In this document: positions 16,243 through 25,330 of the stretch, piece after piece
Layout of the letters: each line of letters begins with the position of its first letter
How positions within the stretch are numbered: the first letter of the stretch is position 1
NCBI GenBank assembly: GCA_036381495.1
Contig: DASVCS010000015.1
Coordinates: 5,687 to 69,686 of the forward strand
Direction of reading: 5' to 3'
DNA from: Longimicrobiales bacterium
GTDB lineage: Bacteria > Gemmatimonadota > Gemmatimonadetes > Longimicrobiales > RSA9
DNA length: 64,000 nt
The notes under the pieces: model-generated
Told to the model about the DNA's origin: nothing
Databases searched by the model: none
What the model saw: the letters and a program-made list of their open reading frames with translations, nothing else
Position numbers and translations under genes: made by a program

Positions 16243-16693
16243 GTGCCCATCGAGTTTCGTATCGGGTGCGCGATTCCGCCGAGCCGGATCGTGCTACGAC
16301 ACGCGCCGAGGACCGGCTCGCGAGCTCGTCGTGTATGATCCGGTCGAAGCGGCGCGGCGGTGGCGGCCCGGCCCTCGAACCGCGCGACCAGGACGGCAAC
16401 GGCCATCAAGATAGCGCTGCACGGGGCGCGGCGGCGAGCGTCGGCATGCGACCCCGGGTCGCGGATGGATGCGGGCCGTGGCGGCCGAGGGACGCCGAAC
16501 CCTTGCTGCGCCGCAGGTTGCGCGGGGTCGTGCGGCGCGGTAACGTTCGCGGTTGCGCGCAAGCAGACCGTTCGATCGTGAGGAACCGCGTGGAGAGCGA
16601 AGTCGTCGTGGATGCGCGCGCCGGTGGTTCGGCGCGCCGGGCGCGGTGCCCCGGCCGATCCGTGGGACCCGAGGCGCCGGCGGATCGGGTCGG

Positions 16694-18637
16694 ATGACTC
16701 CGCAGGTCACGCTACGGCGCCCGACGCAGCCGGCCGAGGCCGCGAGCGCCGCCAGCGCGCACGAAGGGGAGCCGCGCGGACGCTATCTGGTGATGCTCTC
16801 GCTGACGGCGCTCGGCGTCGTCTTCGGCGACATCGGCACCAGCCCGCTCTACGCGCTCCGGGAGTGCTTCTTCGGCGAGCACGCCGTGGCGGTGACGGCC
16901 GCGAACGTGCTAGGCGTGTTGTCGCTCATCTTCTGGGCGCTCATCCTGGTCATCTCGGTCAAATACCTGACGTTCATCCTGCGCGCGGACAACCGCGGCG
17001 AGGGCGGGATCCTGGCGCTGATGGCGCTGGCGCGCCCCGAGGCGCGGGGGACGCCGGCGCGTCTGCCGCGCCTTGCCGCTTTCGGCATCTTCGGCGCTGC
17101 GCTGCTCTACGGGGACGGGATGATCACGCCGTCGATCTCGGTACTCAGCGCAGTGGAAGGGCTCGAAGTCGCGACGCCGGTGTTCCGGCCATACGTGATC
17201 CCGATCACGGTCGGGATCCTGGTGGCGCTTTTCCTGTTGCAACGTCGCGGCACCGCAGGGGTCGGCGCGATCTTCGGTCCCGTCACGCTGGTGTGGTTCA
17301 CGACGCTGGCGGGGCTCGGAATCCGGCAGATCATCCGCGAGCCATCGGTGCTCGCGGCGGTGAGCCCGCTGCATGCCGTCGACTTCTTCGTCCGCAACGG
17401 CGTCATCGGGTTCTTCGTGCTGGGCGCGGTCTTCCTGGTGGTGACGGGCGGCGAGGCGATGTACGCGGACATGGGCCACTTCGGGCGCCGCCCGATCCGG
17501 CTTGCCTGGTTCGGACTCGTCCTGCCGGCGCTGCTGCTCAACTATTTCGGCCAGGGCGCGCTCCTGCTGCACACGCCGGAGGCGGCGCACAACCCGTTCT
17601 ACCGGCTCGCGCCGGGGTGGGCCCTGATCCCGCTGGTCGTGTTGGCGACGGCGGCGACGGTCATCGCGTCGCAGGCGGTGATCTCGGGCGCATTCTCGCT
17701 GACCATGCAGGCCGTGCAACTCGGGTTCAGCCCGCGCGTGCACATCGACCACACGTCGGCCGAGGAGTTCGGCCAGATCTACATTCCCGGCATCAACTGG
17801 ACCCTGATGCTGGCGTGCATCGCGCTGGTCATCGGGTTCCGGACATCGAGCAACCTCGCGGCCGCGTACGGCGTGGCCGTGACCACCGACATGGTCTTCG
17901 CCTCGATCCTCTTCTTCGCGGTCCTCCGCGGCCGCTGGCGCTGGAGCGTGTGGGCCGCGCTCGCACTCGTCGGCGCGTTCCTGACCATGGACCTGTCGTT
18001 CTGGGGCGCGAACATCGTCAAGGTTCCCGATGGCGGCTGGGTCCCGCTCGCCGTCGCCGCCACGATCTTCACGCTCATGACGACGTGGAAGCGAGGCCGC
18101 GGGATCCTTGCCCGACGCCTGAACTCCACCTCCATTCCCTTCGATGCGTTCCTCGAGGGACTGATCGCGCACCCGCCGGTGCGCGTCCCCGGGACGGCCG
18201 TCTTCATGACCGGCAACCCCGGCGCCACGCCGCCGGCGCTGTTGCACAACCTCAAGCACAACCAGGTGCTGCACGAGCAGGTCGTCCTCCTCACCGTGGT
18301 GATGGAAGAGGTCCCGCACGTGCCTCGCTCCCGGCGCATGCAGCTCGAGGAGCTCGGCGGCGGCTTCTACCGCCTGACCGCGCGGTACGGCTACATGGAA
18401 GAGCCTGACGTGCCGAAGGTCCTCACGCAGGCCGGGCGCCTCGGCCTGCACACCGACCTCATGCGCACCACTTTCTTTCTCGGTCGCGAACACCTCATCG
18501 CCTCCCGCAAGCGGGGAATGGCCCTCTGGCGCGAAAAGCTCTTCGCACTCCTCACCCGCAACGCCACCAGCGCCACCGCCTTCTTCCGGATTCCGCCCAA
18601 CCGGGTCGTCGAGATGGGGATGCAGATCGAGATCTGA
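16694..18637 (+). CDS. kup: KUP/HAK/KT potassium uptake transporter
   Basis: ORF 16553..18637(+), trimmed to the ATG at 16694. LTALGVVFGDIGTSPLYALRECF...ADNRGEGGILALMAL...TGGEAMYADMGHFG are diagnostic Kup motifs. Confidence 0.9.
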   Translation: MTPQVTLRRPTQPAEAASAASAHEGEPRGRYLVMLSLTALGVVFGDIGTSPLYALRECFFGEHAVAVTAANVLGVLSLIFWALILVISVKYLTFILRADNRGEGGILALMALARPEARGTPARLPRLAAFGIFGAALLYGDGMITPSISVLSAVEGLEVATPVFRPYVIPITVGILVALFLLQRRGTAGVGAIFGPVTLVWFTTLAGLGIRQIIREPSVLAAVSPLHAVDFFVRNGVIGFFVLGAVFLVVTGGEAMYADMGHFGRRPIRLAWFGLVLPALLLNYFGQGALLLHTPEAAHNPFYRLAPGWALIPLVVLATAATVIASQAVISGAFSLTMQAVQLGFSPRVHIDHTSAEEFGQIYIPGINWTLMLACIALVIGFRTSSNLAAAYGVAVTTDMVFASILFFAVLRGRWRWSVWAALALVGAFLTMDLSFWGANIVKVPDGGWVPLAVAATIFTLMTTWKRGRGILARRLNSTSIPFDAFLEGLIAHPPVRVPGTAVFMTGNPGATPPALLHNLKHNQVLHEQVVLLTVVMEEVPHVPRSRRMQLEELGGGFYRLTARYGYMEEPDVPKVLTQAGRLGLHTDLMRTTFFLGREHLIASRKRGMALWREKLFALLTRNATSATAFFRIPPNRVVEMGMQIEI

Positions 18638-18673
18638 GATCAGGTTCGCGGGAACCGGTCAGTGTTACTGCAC

Positions 18674-18788
18674 GGGAACGGGAGCGGCGGCTGCGCCGCC
18701 TGGAGCGGGAACGTTTACGTTTACGGGAAACGGGAGCGCCCTCCGTGCCCGTAAACGTAAACGTTCCCGCTCCCGTTCCCGCTCCCGG
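18674..18788. repeat. Repeat family A, palindromic copy (26-bp perfect stem)
   Basis: GGAGCGGGAACGTTTACGTTTACGGG (18702-18727) is the exact reverse complement of 18748-18773, with a 20-nt loop. 18680-18728 is identical (49/49) to 25055-25103. A C-rich hexamer tail (GTTCCCGATCCCGCCCGATCCC) continues to about 18905. Confidence 0.9.
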
Positions 18789-18973
18789 AGGTCACCCCGA
18801 ATCGCGCACGGTCCATGCGAACTTGATCTGAGGGAGCGGCGCAGTCGCGGCGCCTGTCCCTGCAAGCGTTGTCGCTGCCGTTCCCGATCCCGCCCGATCC
18901 CGTCGCGGCCAGACGTAATTCGCCGAGCCGAGCCTGAAATTCGAGCGTCCTGTCCGGGTGTACCGCGGTGCGC

Positions 18974-19002
18974 TTGACACTTCGGTGTTTGTTCGGTATC
19001 CT
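18974..19002 (+). promoter_or_regulatory. Sigma70-like promoter of the radical-SAM gene, with direct repeats in the spacer
   Basis: TTGACA (18974-18979), a 17-nt spacer, then TATCCT (18997-19002). The spacer carries TTCGGT twice with an 11-nt period (18981, 18992). The ATG is at 19029, preceded by GGAGGGGGA. Confidence 0.5.
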
Positions 19003-19028: not shown

Positions 19029-20312
19029 ATGACGCGGGATCCGGATCTGGGGCGGAAGCTCGAGCTGCTGATGTCGCTGGCGATCGACGACCGGGAGGCG
19101 GGGGCGCCGCCGGCCGGGCGCGCGCTGCCGCCGCGCCTGCGGAACGCGGGGGAGGCCGGTGTTTTGCGGCCGCTGAACCTGCGAGAGGTGCGGGCGCGGG
19201 GCGGCGGGCGCGTGTGGCTGCTGCGGGTGTTGATGACGAACGCGTGCAGCTTCAACTGCCACTATTGTCCGATGCGCCGGGACCGTGAGCTTCCCCGCAC
19301 ATTGCTCAAGCCGGAGGAGCTGGTGCGGATCTTCCTGGGCGCGTACCGGCGCGGCTGGTGCAGCGGGCTGTTCATCACGACGGGGATCCCGGGGCGGCCG
19401 GTGAAGGTGATGGACGACCTGATCGAAGTGCTGGAGTCGTTGCGCGAGCGACACGGCTTCCGGGGCTACGTGCACGTGAAGCTGGTGCCGGGCGCTGAGG
19501 CGGCGCAGATCGAGCGGCTGACCGCGCTGGCGAGCCGCGTTTCGCTGAACCTGGAGGCGCCGTGCGGTGCGAGCCTGACGCGGATCGCGCCGGAAAAGCG
19601 CTTCGATGAGGCGCTCGCGGAGCTGGACACGGCGCGGCGCCTGGTGTTGCGGGAGTTGGCGGAGGAGGCGGACGGCAAGCGTCGCGACCCGCTACGGCCG
19701 GGTGGTGCATCTGGAATGACCACGCAGTTCGTCGTGGGTGCGACGTCCGACACGGACCGTGCGATTCTGGGCAGGGCCGCTGCGCTGTACGCGAGCGGCG
19801 GGGTCCACCACACGCATTACAGCGGTTTCCGGCCGATCCGTGGCACGCCGATGGAGGACGTGCCGGAGGTTCCGGCGATGCGCGAGCACCGACTGTACCA
19901 GGCGGATCACCTGTTGCGCCTCTACGACTTCGCGCCCGATGAGGTGGTCTACGACGACGAGGGGAACCTGCCACTCGCGCTCGATCCGAAGGCTGCCTGG
20001 GCGCTCGCGCATCCGGAGCGGTTCCCGGTCGAGGTCCGCACGGCCTCCTATCGGGCGTTGATCCGGGTCCCGGGGATCGGTCCCGTCGTCGCGCGCCGCA
20101 TCATCGCCGAGCGTCGCACGACGCAGTTCAGGGGTCTCGCGGACTTGCGGCGACTCGGCGTGATCGCGCGGCGGGCGGCGGGCTTCCTCACGCTCGCCGG
20201 CCGGCGTCTGGGGGATGTCCGCTGGGCCGAACAGCTCTCGTTGTGGGGAGCGGACGACCCGGCGGGCATCCCCTCGCGCCTCTACGAGGTGAGCCCGGGG
20301 ACGTTCCGGTAA
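19029..20312 (+). CDS. Radical SAM protein of the putative DNA modification/repair type, with a C-terminal helix-hairpin-helix
   Basis: CX3CX2C cluster NACSFNCHYCPMRRD. The C-terminal HhH is LIRVPGIGPVVARRIIAER. Length and layout match the rSAM family that is normally linked to a UDG-like/DUF4130 partner. Confidence 0.75.
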   Translation: MTRDPDLGRKLELLMSLAIDDREAGAPPAGRALPPRLRNAGEAGVLRPLNLREVRARGGGRVWLLRVLMTNACSFNCHYCPMRRDRELPRTLLKPEELVRIFLGAYRRGWCSGLFITTGIPGRPVKVMDDLIEVLESLRERHGFRGYVHVKLVPGAEAAQIERLTALASRVSLNLEAPCGASLTRIAPEKRFDEALAELDTARRLVLRELAEEADGKRRDPLRPGGASGMTTQFVVGATSDTDRAILGRAAALYASGGVHHTHYSGFRPIRGTPMEDVPEVPAMREHRLYQADHLLRLYDFAPDEVVYDDEGNLPLALDPKAAWALAHPERFPVEVRTASYRALIRVPGIGPVVARRIIAERRTTQFRGLADLRRLGVIARRAAGFLTLAGRRLGDVRWAEQLSLWGADDPAGIPSRLYEVSPGTFR

Positions 20313-24952: not shown

Positions 24953-25330
24953 GGCTAGGGCTAGGGCTAGGGCTGGGGCTGGGGCTGGGGTTGCCCGGGA
25001 GGAGGTGCGGTGGAGGGGAGGACGGCCCTGGTATGGCCGGGAACGGCCGGGAGCGGGAGCGGCGGCTGCGCCGCCTGGAGCGGGAACGTTTACGTTTACG
25101 GGAGTGGCGGCGGCCGGGACGGGGGGCGATGGAGGGCGGAACGGCCGGGAAGGGCCCGGGAGGGCGTGTGGTGGAGGGGGAAGGGCCGGGTATGGCCCGG
25201 AGGGGGCGGAGCGCGGTTGATGCGGCGCCGTCGGGACGTACGGACGGGCGGGGCATGGCGGGGAGCGGTGTGGTGGAGGGGGCGGTGGGACGCGTGCGCG
25301 TACACGGTGGGCATGGGGGCTTCGGGCGAG
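24946..25330 (+). repeat. Repeat family A, composite G-rich element (copy B, with internal triplication)
   Basis: Seven GGGCTR hexamers (24946-24987), then the same modules as 12593-12831 plus a GGCGGC-tgc-GCCGCC hairpin module. (GTTTAC)2 is at about 25088-25099. The GGTG(C/T)GGTGGAGGGG module occurs three times (about 25005, 25170, 25268). Confidence 0.85.

What the first reader, a model, noticed from the sequence alone, without database searches (positions are those of the whole stretch)
18674..18905. Palindromic version of the family A element: 26-bp perfect stem built from the GGGAAC-(GTTTAC)2 module, downstream of kup
GGAGCGGGAACGTTTACGTTTACGGG (18702-18727) pairs perfectly with 18748-18773, with a 20-nt loop that itself contains CGGGAG...CTCCG.
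- GGGAACGGGAGCGG (18674-18687) is also complementary to 18767-18780, so alternative extended pairings exist.
- 18680-18728 is 49/49 identical to 25055-25103 in copy B, including the small GGCGGC-tgc-GCCGCC hairpin. This implies recent copying or strong constraint.
- A C-rich hexamer tail (GTTCCC GATCCC GCCCGA TCCC) follows.
- The position is 37 nt after the kup stop and about 190 nt before the radical-SAM promoter. That is the place expected for a strong terminator or insulator, or for a cruciform/protein-binding site.
Basis: seen in the sequence. Interest (0 to 1): 0.65.

Follow-up and report, generated by a model that had tools for sequence, protein, structure and literature searches.

The report
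Hairpin MITE inserted at kup stop codon
The perfect 26-bp palindrome after the potassium-transporter gene kup is the core of a roughly 190-bp non-coding mobile element (a MITE) that landed exactly on the gene's stop codon and duplicated it; it is a new family of an ordinary kind of selfish DNA, and nothing in the sequence marks it as a dedicated terminator.

Summary
The arms 18702-18727 and 18748-18773 are 100% complementary. The 49-mer is identical to copy B. The 21-mer core has 101 exact copies in the 4.28-Mb genome.

The real element is 18638-18828 (191 bp). It has imperfect terminal inverted repeats and is flanked by a direct TGA/TGA repeat. The left TGA (18635-18637) is the kup stop codon.

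About 20 full or near-full copies exist, with a median pairwise identity of 90%.
- In 9 of 13 copies with two readable ends the flanking triplets are identical: TGA x7, TAA x1, TCA x1. The other four differ at one base, and all but one of their eight triplets (CAA) fit TNA.
- Eleven Pfam-verified genes use that triplet as their stop codon, and none of these stops is TAG.
- Kup homologues in relatives stop at the same codon, so the protein is untouched.

A 3-bp TNA duplication is the hallmark of IS5-family (IS1031-type) and Harbinger-type transposases. No partner transposase with matching ends was found.

There is no U-tract and almost no covariation. One copy sits 16 nt upstream of the purQ start inside a pur gene cluster. 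A strong terminator role is therefore unsupported, and no RNA data could be obtained.

Verdict: a new MITE family that shares a 60-nt module with the G-rich "family A" repeats. Interest is moderate to low.

The parts
16553..18637 (+). kup (KUP-family K+ transporter) coding sequence. The start codon is uncertain. The stop is TGA at 18635-18637.
   Evidence: ORF list. GC3 is 0.90 over the last 100 codons. Homologues in 5 relatives and one own paralogue align to the last residue and stop at the same codon.
18635..18637 (+). Left target-site duplication (TGA). It is also the kup stop codon.
   Evidence: Direct TGA...TGA flanks the element. The stop position is conserved in relatives.
18638..18828 (.). 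The complete MITE-like element, 191 bp. It folds end to end into one long hairpin.
   Evidence: The alignment of 20 loci loses similarity exactly at these borders. nhmmer best hit C15:24322-24516, 205.6 bits. RNA MFE -121.4 kcal/mol. DNA MFE -70.8 kcal/mol, z = -9.5.
18638..18660 (+). Terminal inverted repeat, 'A' end: GATCAGGTTCGCGGGAACCGGTC. The family consensus is TATCGAGTTCGCGTGAACCGGTC.
   Evidence: With up to 3 mismatches the consensus occurs 15 times in this genome. It has single chance-level hits in only 2 of 300 other genomes of the order.
18674..18727 (+). Left arm, which is the family A module. It contains GGGAACGGGAGC, the side hairpin GGCGGC-TGC-GCCGCC (18686-18700), and TGGAGCGGGAACGTTTACGTTTACGGG.
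   Evidence: 49/49 identity with window 25055-25103. More than 100 loci match only this part of the element model, positions 39-100.
18702..18773 (.). Central perfect hairpin: 26-bp stem (18702-18727 / 18748-18773) and a 20-nt loop (18728-18747) that has its own small stem.
   Evidence: I1.: -56.5 kcal/mol on the + strand and -56.7 on the - strand, z about -10.
18748..18787 (+). Right arm. It is the reverse complement of the core plus C-rich hexamers (CCCGCT/CCCGTT) that pair with 18673-18687.
   Evidence: I1, I6, D1. Structures.
18806..18828 (-). Terminal inverted repeat, 'B' end. Read on the minus strand it is GATCAAGTTCGCATGGACCGTGC.
   Evidence: It pairs with the A end in every copy folded.
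18829..18831 (+). Right target-site duplication (TGA).
18832..18905 (+). Not part of the element. This is the pre-existing kup 3' flank, with its own hairpin (18832-18885) and the C-rich hexamer tail.
   Evidence: Outside the aligned unit. No nhmmer hit. Fold -35.5 kcal/mol, z = -3.0.
18974..19002 (+). Promoter-like site of the downstream radical-SAM gene (start at 19029). This is context only.
   Evidence: TTGACA-17-TATCCT, 10 of 12 matches.

Best explanation
The palindrome is the body of a non-autonomous DNA transposon, a MITE of about 190-250 bp.

**Anatomy**
- Its ends are imperfect terminal inverted repeats: TATCGAGTTCGCGTGAACCGGTC ... GCACGGTCCATGCGAACTCGATA.
- Its interior is an inverted duplication of the genome's G-rich 'family A' module around the GTTTAC-GTTTAC core.
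- As a result the whole element is one long hairpin.

**Insertion at this locus**
- It integrated at a TNA trinucleotide and duplicated it, giving a 3-bp target-site duplication.
- Here the target was the TGA stop codon of kup.
- The left copy of TGA still terminates Kup at its ancestral position. The right copy (18829-18831) joins the old 3' flank.

**Inferred steps**
- The transposase would be of the IS5 (IS1031-type) / PIF-Harbinger kind acting in trans. This is inferred from the TNA duplication.
- Stop codons are favoured sites because TGA and TAA are TNA, and because an insertion there leaves the protein intact. This is also inferred.
- The hairpin is a consequence of the element's architecture. 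Any effect on kup mRNA 3'-end formation or stability would be a by-product and has not been shown.
For: - **Borders:** 20 loci align across a unit whose similarity starts and stops sharply at the inverted repeats. nhmmer finds about 20 full or near-full copies, and more than 100 loci that match only the internal module.
- **Target duplication:** flanking triplets are identical in 9 of 13 copies with two readable ends (TGA x7, TAA/TAA in C43, TCA/TCA in C154). The other four differ at one base. The repeats are direct, not inverted, so they are not part of the terminal repeats.
- **Stop codons:**
  - Eleven genes end in the flanking triplet. Ten are verified by Pfam and the eleventh is Kup.
  - None of these stops is TAG, although TAG makes up 31% of stops in this genome. 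Chance of that is 0.69^11 = 0.017.
  - Enrichment at stops gives P of about 1e-6 with the crude gene calls, and P = 0.026 with a deliberately high background of 0.3.
- **Protein untouched:** Kup homologues stop at the same codon.
- **Family structure:**
  - Sub-families exist, for example one with a 33-nt internal duplication found at six or seven loci.
  - Median pairwise identity is 0.90. This pattern indicates copying of variants.
- **Hairpin:** every copy folds end to end, at -96 to -145 kcal/mol.
- **Literature:** TNA preference for the IS1031 group of the IS5 family (PMC1676026). C|TNA|G duplications in the related PHIS superfamily (PMC4482050).
- **Resident IS:** the genome's only DDE_Tnp_1 IS is an 878-bp IS5-family element. 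It too is flanked by TGA/TGA, with the left TGA serving as a gene's stop codon.
Against: - **No partner transposase with matching ends was found.** It was not in this genome, which is 80% complete. It was not in 300 genomes of the order. It was not in the species-representative or metagenome collections, where all hits were at chance level.
- **No empty site was observed.** No close relative or population data were available.
- **The duplication evidence is thin in variety.** Most duplications are TGA, so the case rests on only two non-TGA concordant pairs plus the direct (not inverted) orientation.
- **The flanking-base preference is weak.** G follows the duplication in 9 of 14 copies (P = 0.024). 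C precedes it in 7 of 14 (P = 0.18).
- **Not recently active.** The copies are about 90% identical, so recent mobility is not shown.
Confidence: 0.8

Rival explanations
1. The element is kept by the host as a factor-independent, possibly bidirectional, transcription terminator, insulator or mRNA-stabilising 3' hairpin for kup and other genes.
For: - The hairpin is very stable on both strands.
- Eleven of about 21 copies begin at a gene's stop codon.
- Nine of these eleven have the same (A) end next to the co-oriented gene, a possible orientation bias.
- MITEs, REPs and SPRITE are discussed as terminator-like or RNA-structure elements in PMC10969869.
Against: - No T/U tract follows the stem on either strand, and the terminator scan finds 0 sites.
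- There is almost no compensatory covariation (3 of 67 pairs), and the covariation term is unfavourable at +3.18.
- One copy lies 16 nt upstream of the purQ ATG, inside a co-directional purS...purQ-purL cluster. Another abuts a gene start (C120).
- The element is absent from all 300 related genomes checked, so it is not a conserved regulatory device.
- The orientation bias can equally follow from the central base of the target: TGA in all three copies that have no co-oriented gene stop at the triplet.
Confidence: 0.12
2. It is a REPIN-type element: a doublet of REP palindromes mobilised by a RAYT (Y1, IS200/IS605-like) transposase, which leaves no target duplication.
For: - It has a hairpin architecture, is intergenic and is multi-copy.
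- The genome has two weak Y1_Tnp matches, at 35 and 24 bits.
Against: - Concordant 3-bp direct repeats flank the copies.
- The element is 190-250 bp with distinct 23-nt terminal inverted repeats, not a 20-40-nt REP doublet.
- The Y1_Tnp hits lie in long ORFs (469 and 363 aa). They are not near any element or core copy.
Confidence: 0.03
3. The inverted (GTTTAC)2 cores are the operator of a dimeric DNA-binding protein, or a cruciform-forming site with a chromosomal role. On this reading the mobile-element features are incidental.
For: - The 21-mer is invariant in 101 copies, and it is the only AT-rich patch in a 70% GC context.
- In this copy the stem is perfect.
Against: - Most copies of the core are solitary, not inverted: 91 of 101.
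- The stems of other palindromic copies carry mismatches.
- The core is unknown outside this genome.
- No candidate binding protein is linked to it.
Confidence: 0.04
4. It is a structured small-RNA gene family or a known cis-regulatory RNA.
For: The fold is strong, with z = -8 to -10.
Against: - No Rfam family reaches its gathering score. The sub-threshold hits are generic eukaryotic miRNA hairpins.
- No covariation.
- No promoter-like site precedes it.
Confidence: 0.02

Closest known systems
IS5-family (IS1031-type) insertion sequences and their MITEs; eukaryotic PIF/Harbinger-NuwaII elements and Tourist-like MITEs (PHIS superfamily)
   Same: - 3-bp target-site duplication of the form TNA, with a weak C|TNA|G tendency.
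- Short terminal inverted repeats.
- A non-coding derivative present in tens of copies.
- The genome's own IS5-family IS shows the same TGA/TGA flanks at a stop codon.
   Different: - The terminal repeats are unrelated to the resident IS; the alignment is no better than shuffles.
- No autonomous partner is known.
- The interior is not a deleted IS. It is an inverted duplication of a host-wide G-rich hexamer module.
Correia repeat-enclosed elements (CREE/NEMIS) of Neisseria
   Same: (Statements about Correia elements are from my own knowledge.)
- Both are 100-200-bp MITEs with terminal inverted repeats and a short AT-containing duplication (TA in Correia).
- Both have many intergenic copies next to gene ends, and transcripts that fold into long hairpins.
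   Different: - The duplication here is 3 bp (TNA), not 2 bp (TA).
- No IHF site or promoter boxes were identified here.
- There are about 20 copies rather than hundreds.
- The GC content is extreme and the interior has hexamer periodicity.
Pneumococcal BOX/RUP/SPRITE and enterobacterial REP/BIME modular repeats
   Same: - Modular, mosaic construction, with modules shared between element types.
- Intergenic location.
- Stable RNA/DNA hairpins, discussed as terminator-like (PMC10969869).
   Different: - BOX and REP elements lack target duplications, and REP is mobilised by RAYTs.
- This element has clear terminal inverted repeats and duplications.
- There is no U-tract like that of SPRITE.
Family A G-rich hexamer mosaic of the same genome (earlier notes e1-5023756 and e1-5023758, which compared it with the G4-forming repeats of Xanthomonas and Nostoc)
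   Same: It shares the 60-nt module including the 21-mer core, at up to 100% identity. Further modules are also shared, such as GGGGCGCCCGAAGGAAGCCTCCGTTTCCACG.
   Different: - Family A copies are one-stranded (G-rich) mosaics, and their upstream sequence differs from the element's terminal repeat; their own ends were not mapped here.
- The palindromic element has its own 23-nt ends and a TNA duplication.
- By direct reading of the sequence, it has no run of four G3 tracts with loops of 7 nt or less.

Membership tests
MITE (miniature inverted-repeat transposable element) | Small (under about 500 bp) and without coding capacity | tested here: met
   The aligned unit is 169-249 bp. Coding capacity was not tested directly; the element is shorter than any transposase gene and folds end to end as one hairpin.
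MITE (miniature inverted-repeat transposable element) | Terminal inverted repeats | tested here: met
   The roughly 23-nt ends pair in all copies.
MITE (miniature inverted-repeat transposable element) | Target-site duplication flanking the copies | tested here: met
   9 of 13 copies have identical 3-nt direct repeats of three different sequences. The rest differ at 1 nt.
MITE (miniature inverted-repeat transposable element) | Multiple dispersed copies at unrelated loci | tested here: met
   About 20 copies on 17 or more contigs, next to unrelated genes.
MITE (miniature inverted-repeat transposable element) | Presence/absence polymorphism (empty site) | not testable with these tools
   No congeneric genome is held. 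The exact-protein look-up returned nothing.
IS5 family / IS1031-type derivative | 3-bp duplication with TNA specificity | tested here: met
   Literature: PMC1676026 and PMC4482050.
IS5 family / IS1031-type derivative | Ends that match those of an autonomous IS encoding a DDE_Tnp_1 transposase | tested here: not met
   The ends of the only resident IS5-family IS are unrelated. No matching ends were found elsewhere.
REP/REPIN-RAYT system | No target duplication, short REP doublets, and a RAYT gene flanked by the repeats | tested here: not met
   Duplications are present. The two weak Y1_Tnp hits are not flanked by the repeats.
Intrinsic (Rho-independent) terminator | GC-rich stem-loop immediately followed by a U-tract | tested here: not met
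   The stem is present, but the scan finds 0 terminator-like sites. The downstream sequence is GUUCCCGCUCCC, and at the element end CUUGAUCUGAGGG.
Intrinsic (Rho-independent) terminator | Transcript 3' ends map to the stem base | not testable with these tools
Any Rfam RNA family | Covariance-model score at or above the gathering threshold | tested here: not met
   0 matches at gathering score. Only sub-threshold miRNA-hairpin look-alikes appeared.
Family A G-rich mosaic repeat of this genome | Carries the GGGAAC-(GTTTAC)2-GGG core with flanking GGGAGC/GGGAAC hexamers | tested here: met
Family A G-rich mosaic repeat of this genome | Strand-asymmetric (G-rich on one strand) and without its own terminal inverted repeats | tested here: not met
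   The element is symmetric, with both arms present, and has unique ends that the solitary copies lack.

The most novel reading that the evidence does not exclude
Stop codons may be a preferred 'safe harbour' for mobile DNA in this very GC-rich lineage.

- This MITE, the resident IS5-family IS and at least two or three other unrelated repeat families all sit exactly on stop codons. The other families come from earlier, unchecked notes on the same genome and from the small GAGTTCTCCAC repeat seen here.
- If the transposase actively recognises the stop-codon context, that would be a new targeting principle. The alternative is that selection merely filters insertions.
- It would also be new if the hairpin had been co-opted as a U-tract-independent 3'-end or insulator signal, with the orientation bias (9 A-end versus 2 B-end) reflecting function.
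- In either case this would be a mobile supplier of gene-end structures.
Probability: 0.12. Interest if true: 0.6.

Novelty: new member of a known kind. Interest (0 to 1): 0.33.

Why it matters
- **Annotation:** a feature that looks like a designed terminator is explained as a mobile element. The kup 3' region and about 20 other loci should be labelled accordingly.
- **Target choice:** it is a clean example of how a TNA-duplicating element can sit on a stop codon without altering the protein. It also shows why, in a 70% GC genome, such elements pile up at gene ends.
- **Link to family A:** the genome's abundant G-rich 'family A' mosaic and a bona fide transposon share modules at 100% identity. 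That gives a handle on how those mosaics spread or exchange sequence.
- **Overall:** it does not open a new field. It is a lineage-restricted MITE family in an uncultured bacterium. Earlier, unchecked notes call the organism Gemmatimonadota/Longimicrobiales, and I could not verify the name.

Tried and rejected
1. **Rfam**, at gathering and at permissive thresholds: nothing real.
2. **Whole element by BLAST in 40 relatives:** only CCCGCT/CCCGTT hexamer runs matched.
3. **Terminal-repeat pattern in wider collections:**
   - In 300 genomes of the order, two single hits with 3 mismatches, which is chance level.
   - In the species-representative collection, 39 hits, about the number I estimated for chance (not computed by a tool). 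The two from one Gemmatimonadota MAG look like ordinary sequence without the element's modules, not repeats.
   - In JGI metagenome contigs, 47 single hits. None carries the core or the hexamer module.
   - No other host and no autonomous parent was found.
4. **Transposases in the genome:**
   - PF01609 gives one IS5-family IS with unrelated ends.
   - PF13359 gives none.
   - PF01797 gives two weak hits that are not repeat-associated.
5. **Exact-protein look-up** of the neighbouring radical-SAM gene, to find other assemblies or an empty site: none on record.
There are therefore no transcript ends and no population polymorphism data.
7. **Covariation:** essentially none, so I dropped the idea of a selected RNA structure.
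8. **Canonical G-quadruplex motif in this copy:** rejected by direct reading. The G3 tracts are too far apart.
9. **Gene caller:** my GC3-based caller is crude (80% coverage). I therefore used it only for background rates and checked the key genes with Pfam.
10. **Review look-up:** Mahillon & Chandler 1998 (PMC98933) is not held.

Full report
**1. The observation**

- Arms 18702-18727 and 18748-18773 are 26 nt, 100% complementary and 20 nt apart.
- 18673-18687 also pairs perfectly with 18767-18781.
- 18680-18728 is 49/49 identical to 25055-25103.
- The kup stop is TGA at 18635-18637.
- The central hairpin folds at -56.5 kcal/mol (z = -10). The region 18638-18910 folds at -162.7 kcal/mol (z = -8.2).
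- The 21-mer GGGAACGTTTACGTTTACGGG matches five times in the window (up to 3 mismatches) against zero expected. It has 101 exact copies in the 4.28-Mb, 70.5% GC genome, and 188 with up to 4 mismatches.

**2. What the unit really is**

Sixteen loci carry the core in the inverted (+ then -) arrangement.

An alignment of 20 loci loses similarity abruptly at two points.
- On the left the aligned unit begins TATC(G/A)AGTTCGCGTGAACCGGTC.
- On the right it ends GGTCCATGCGAACT(C/T)GATA.
- These two ends are inverted repeats of each other.

In the window the unit is 18638-18828 (191 bp). It starts directly after the kup stop, not 37 nt after it. The stretch 18832-18905, including the C-rich tail, lies outside it and has its own modest hairpin (-35.5 kcal/mol, z = -3).

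A profile search finds about 20 full or near-full copies. More than 100 further loci match only model positions 39-100, which is the 60-nt family A module. All copies fold end to end into one long hairpin of -96 to -145 kcal/mol.

**3. Target-site duplication**

The three bases outside each end are direct repeats.
- TGA/TGA occurs in seven copies, including the window copy.
- TAA/TAA occurs in C43 and TCA/TCA in C154.
- That makes 9 of the 13 copies whose two ends can be read unambiguously.
- The other four differ at one base: TAA/TGA, TAA/TCA, TTA/TCA and CAA/TAA.
- Every triplet but one (CAA) fits TNA.

The triplets are direct, not inverted, and they vary between copies in a concordant way. 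They are therefore target duplications and not part of the element.

The base after the duplication is G in 9 of 14 copies (P = 0.024). The base before it is C in 7 of 14 (P = 0.18). This is a weak C|TNA|G tendency.

**4. Relation to stop codons**

In eleven copies the flanking triplet is the stop codon of a real gene.
- Nine are at the A end on the gene's strand: Kup, a 4HBT thioesterase, CcmH, an OmpA-family protein, an ABC permease, a DegT aminotransferase, a CDF transporter, a PKD-domain protein and a GGDEF protein.
- Two are at the B end of a convergent gene: an HD-GYP protein and a class-III aminotransferase.
- All except Kup were checked with Pfam.

None of these eleven stops is TAG, although TAG is 31% of stops in this genome (0.69^11 = 0.017). 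That is what a TNA-restricted target predicts.

With my crude gene calls, stop codons make up about 10% of the permissible TNA sites, which gives P of about 1e-6 for 11 of 21. With a deliberately generous background of 30%, P = 0.026.

Kup homologues in five related genomes, and one paralogue in this genome, align to the last residue and stop at the same codon. The element therefore lies exactly at the ancestral stop, and the protein is unchanged. The inferred pre-insertion sequence is ...GAGATC TGA GGGAGCGGCGC....

**5. Mechanism**

A 3-bp duplication with TNA specificity is reported for the IS1031 group of the IS5 family (PMC1676026). C|TNA|G is reported for the related PHIS (PIF/Harbinger-IS5) superfamily (PMC4482050).

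The genome's only DDE_Tnp_1 element is an 878-bp IS with two frames, with annotated IS5-family relatives. It is itself flanked by TGA/TGA, and its left TGA is the stop of the upstream ORF. TNA-duplicating transposition onto stop codons therefore does occur in this organism.

That element's ends are unrelated to the MITE's ends, with alignment scores no better than shuffles. It is not the obvious partner.

I found no partner anywhere.
- There are no long-spaced pairs of the terminal repeat in the genome.
- There is no PF13359 match.
- Nothing beyond chance appeared in 300 genomes of the order.
- The species-representative collection gave only chance-level hits.
- JGI metagenome contigs gave the same.

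The genome is only 80% complete, and the copies are about 90% identical to one another. The partner may be missing from the bin or extinct.

What is shown:
- the architecture of the element;
- the target duplication;
- the copy number;
- the association with stop codons.

What is inferred:
- the class of transposase;
- that stop codons are favoured partly by target chemistry and partly because such insertions are harmless.

**6. Terminator or insulator reading**

Nothing in the sequence supports a dedicated terminator.
- No T-run follows the stem on either strand, and the scan finds no terminator-like site.
- In an alignment of nine copies, 67 pairs are predicted but only three show a change on both sides. 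The covariation term is unfavourable at +3.18. The hairpin is conserved because the copies are related and palindromic.
- One copy (C57:105932-106168) lies in a co-directional purS - small ORF - [element] - purQ - purL cluster, 16 nt upstream of the purQ ATG. Another abuts a gene start. A strong terminator would be harmful at those positions unless a promoter lies in or after the element.
- The element is absent from every related genome examined.

A hairpin of this strength in the kup 3' UTR could still pause polymerase or block exonucleases.

The 9:2 orientation bias at gene ends is suggestive. It is confounded, however: all three two-ended copies with no co-oriented gene stop at the flanking triplet also read TGA, not TCA, in the A-to-B direction. 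The central base of the target may therefore set the orientation.

**7. Relation to family A**

The interior of the element is an inverted duplication of the family A module.
- Solitary family A copies number 91 of the 101 exact cores. Of these, 77 lie outside my crude gene calls. They have different upstream sequence and lack the element's terminal repeats.
- Some element copies have picked up further family A modules. Examples are GGGGCGCCCGAAGGAAGCCTCCGTTTCCACG and GGGATGGGAACGGCCGG.
- 'Palindromic version of family A' is therefore half right. It is a distinct transposon whose cargo is family A sequence.

**8. Other rivals**

- **REPIN/RAYT:** rejected, because duplications are present and the two weak Y1_Tnp hits are not flanked by the repeats.
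- **Known RNA family:** rejected.
- **Operator or cruciform site:** not excluded, but without support.

**9. Verdict**

This is a real feature, correctly seen but wrongly bounded and over-interpreted. It is a new MITE family of a known type, inserted on the kup stop codon.

Earlier notes on this genome report other repeats sitting on stop codons, and name the organism Gemmatimonadota/Longimicrobiales. Their picture agrees with mine, but I did not check those notes here.

Noticed in passing
genome contig C168, about 34.85-35.73 kb, minus strand (outside the window): This is the only DDE_Tnp_1 element of the genome. It is an 878-bp IS5-family IS with two overlapping frames and terminal repeats GAAGCTGT(A/G)AACGAAGTC. 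It is flanked by TGA/TGA, and the left TGA is the stop codon of an upstream lipoprotein-like ORF.
   Followed up: partly
element copies C34:110161, C57:81420, C120:30908 and C57:105932, compared with the window copy 18728-18747: The central loop occurs in both orientations relative to the two distinguishable ends ('flip-flop'). In one copy the whole inner segment, including the GGCGGC-TGC-GCCGCC side hairpin, is flipped. The two loop types differ by paired changes at the tip (GGAG..CTCC versus GTGG..CCAC). This fits recombination or template switching between the arms.
   Followed up: partly
genome contig C57:105932-106168 (outside the window): A copy sits between a 66-aa ORF downstream of purS and purQ, 16 nt upstream of the purQ ATG. 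The surrounding purB-purC-...-purS-purQ-purL cluster is co-directional.
   Followed up: partly
window 18832-18885: A second hairpin (GGGAGCGGC...GCUGCCGUUCCC; -35.5 kcal/mol, z = -3) starts right after the right-hand TGA. It is probably the original kup 3' structure, displaced by the insertion.
   Followed up: partly
genome contigs C17:10941, C48:59337, C57:106167, C59:65035, C105:50305, C137:21602, C155:10452: A further small repeat reads (A)TGAGTTCTCCACCCGCGC..GCGCGGnCCCTGGAGCATGAAACGGCCGTTCGCGCACGCGCA, with about 7 copies. It begins at a TGA in 5 of the 7 copies listed. It lies directly next to one element copy (C57:105932); a diverged look-alike follows C118.
   Followed up: no
genome contigs C54:18461-18736 and C59:73500-73781: Two weak Y1_Tnp (IS200/RAYT-like) matches, at 35 and 24 bits, lie inside unusually long open frames (469 and 363 aa). 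They are not flanked by any of the repeats studied.
   Followed up: no
element copies C34:12447, C118:86899, C105:19630, C120:30908, C168:3452, C57:105932 (C148 partial): A sub-family carries a 33-nt internal duplication (TACTGCACGGGA(A/G)CGGGAGCGGCGGCTCCTCGA) after the A end. Its presence at six or seven loci shows that variants were copied as units.
   Followed up: partly
whole genome (crude GC3-based gene calls): Stop-codon usage is about TGA 65%, TAG 31% and TAA 3.5%. The genome has three kup paralogues: the window copy and two on contig C141.
   Followed up: no
relatives G001, G008, G010, G015, G023, G036 and others: Runs of CCCGCT/CCCGTT hexamers, the complement of GGGAGC/GGGAAC, are widespread in related genera. 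The GTTTAC core and the element's ends are confined to this genome.
   Followed up: partly
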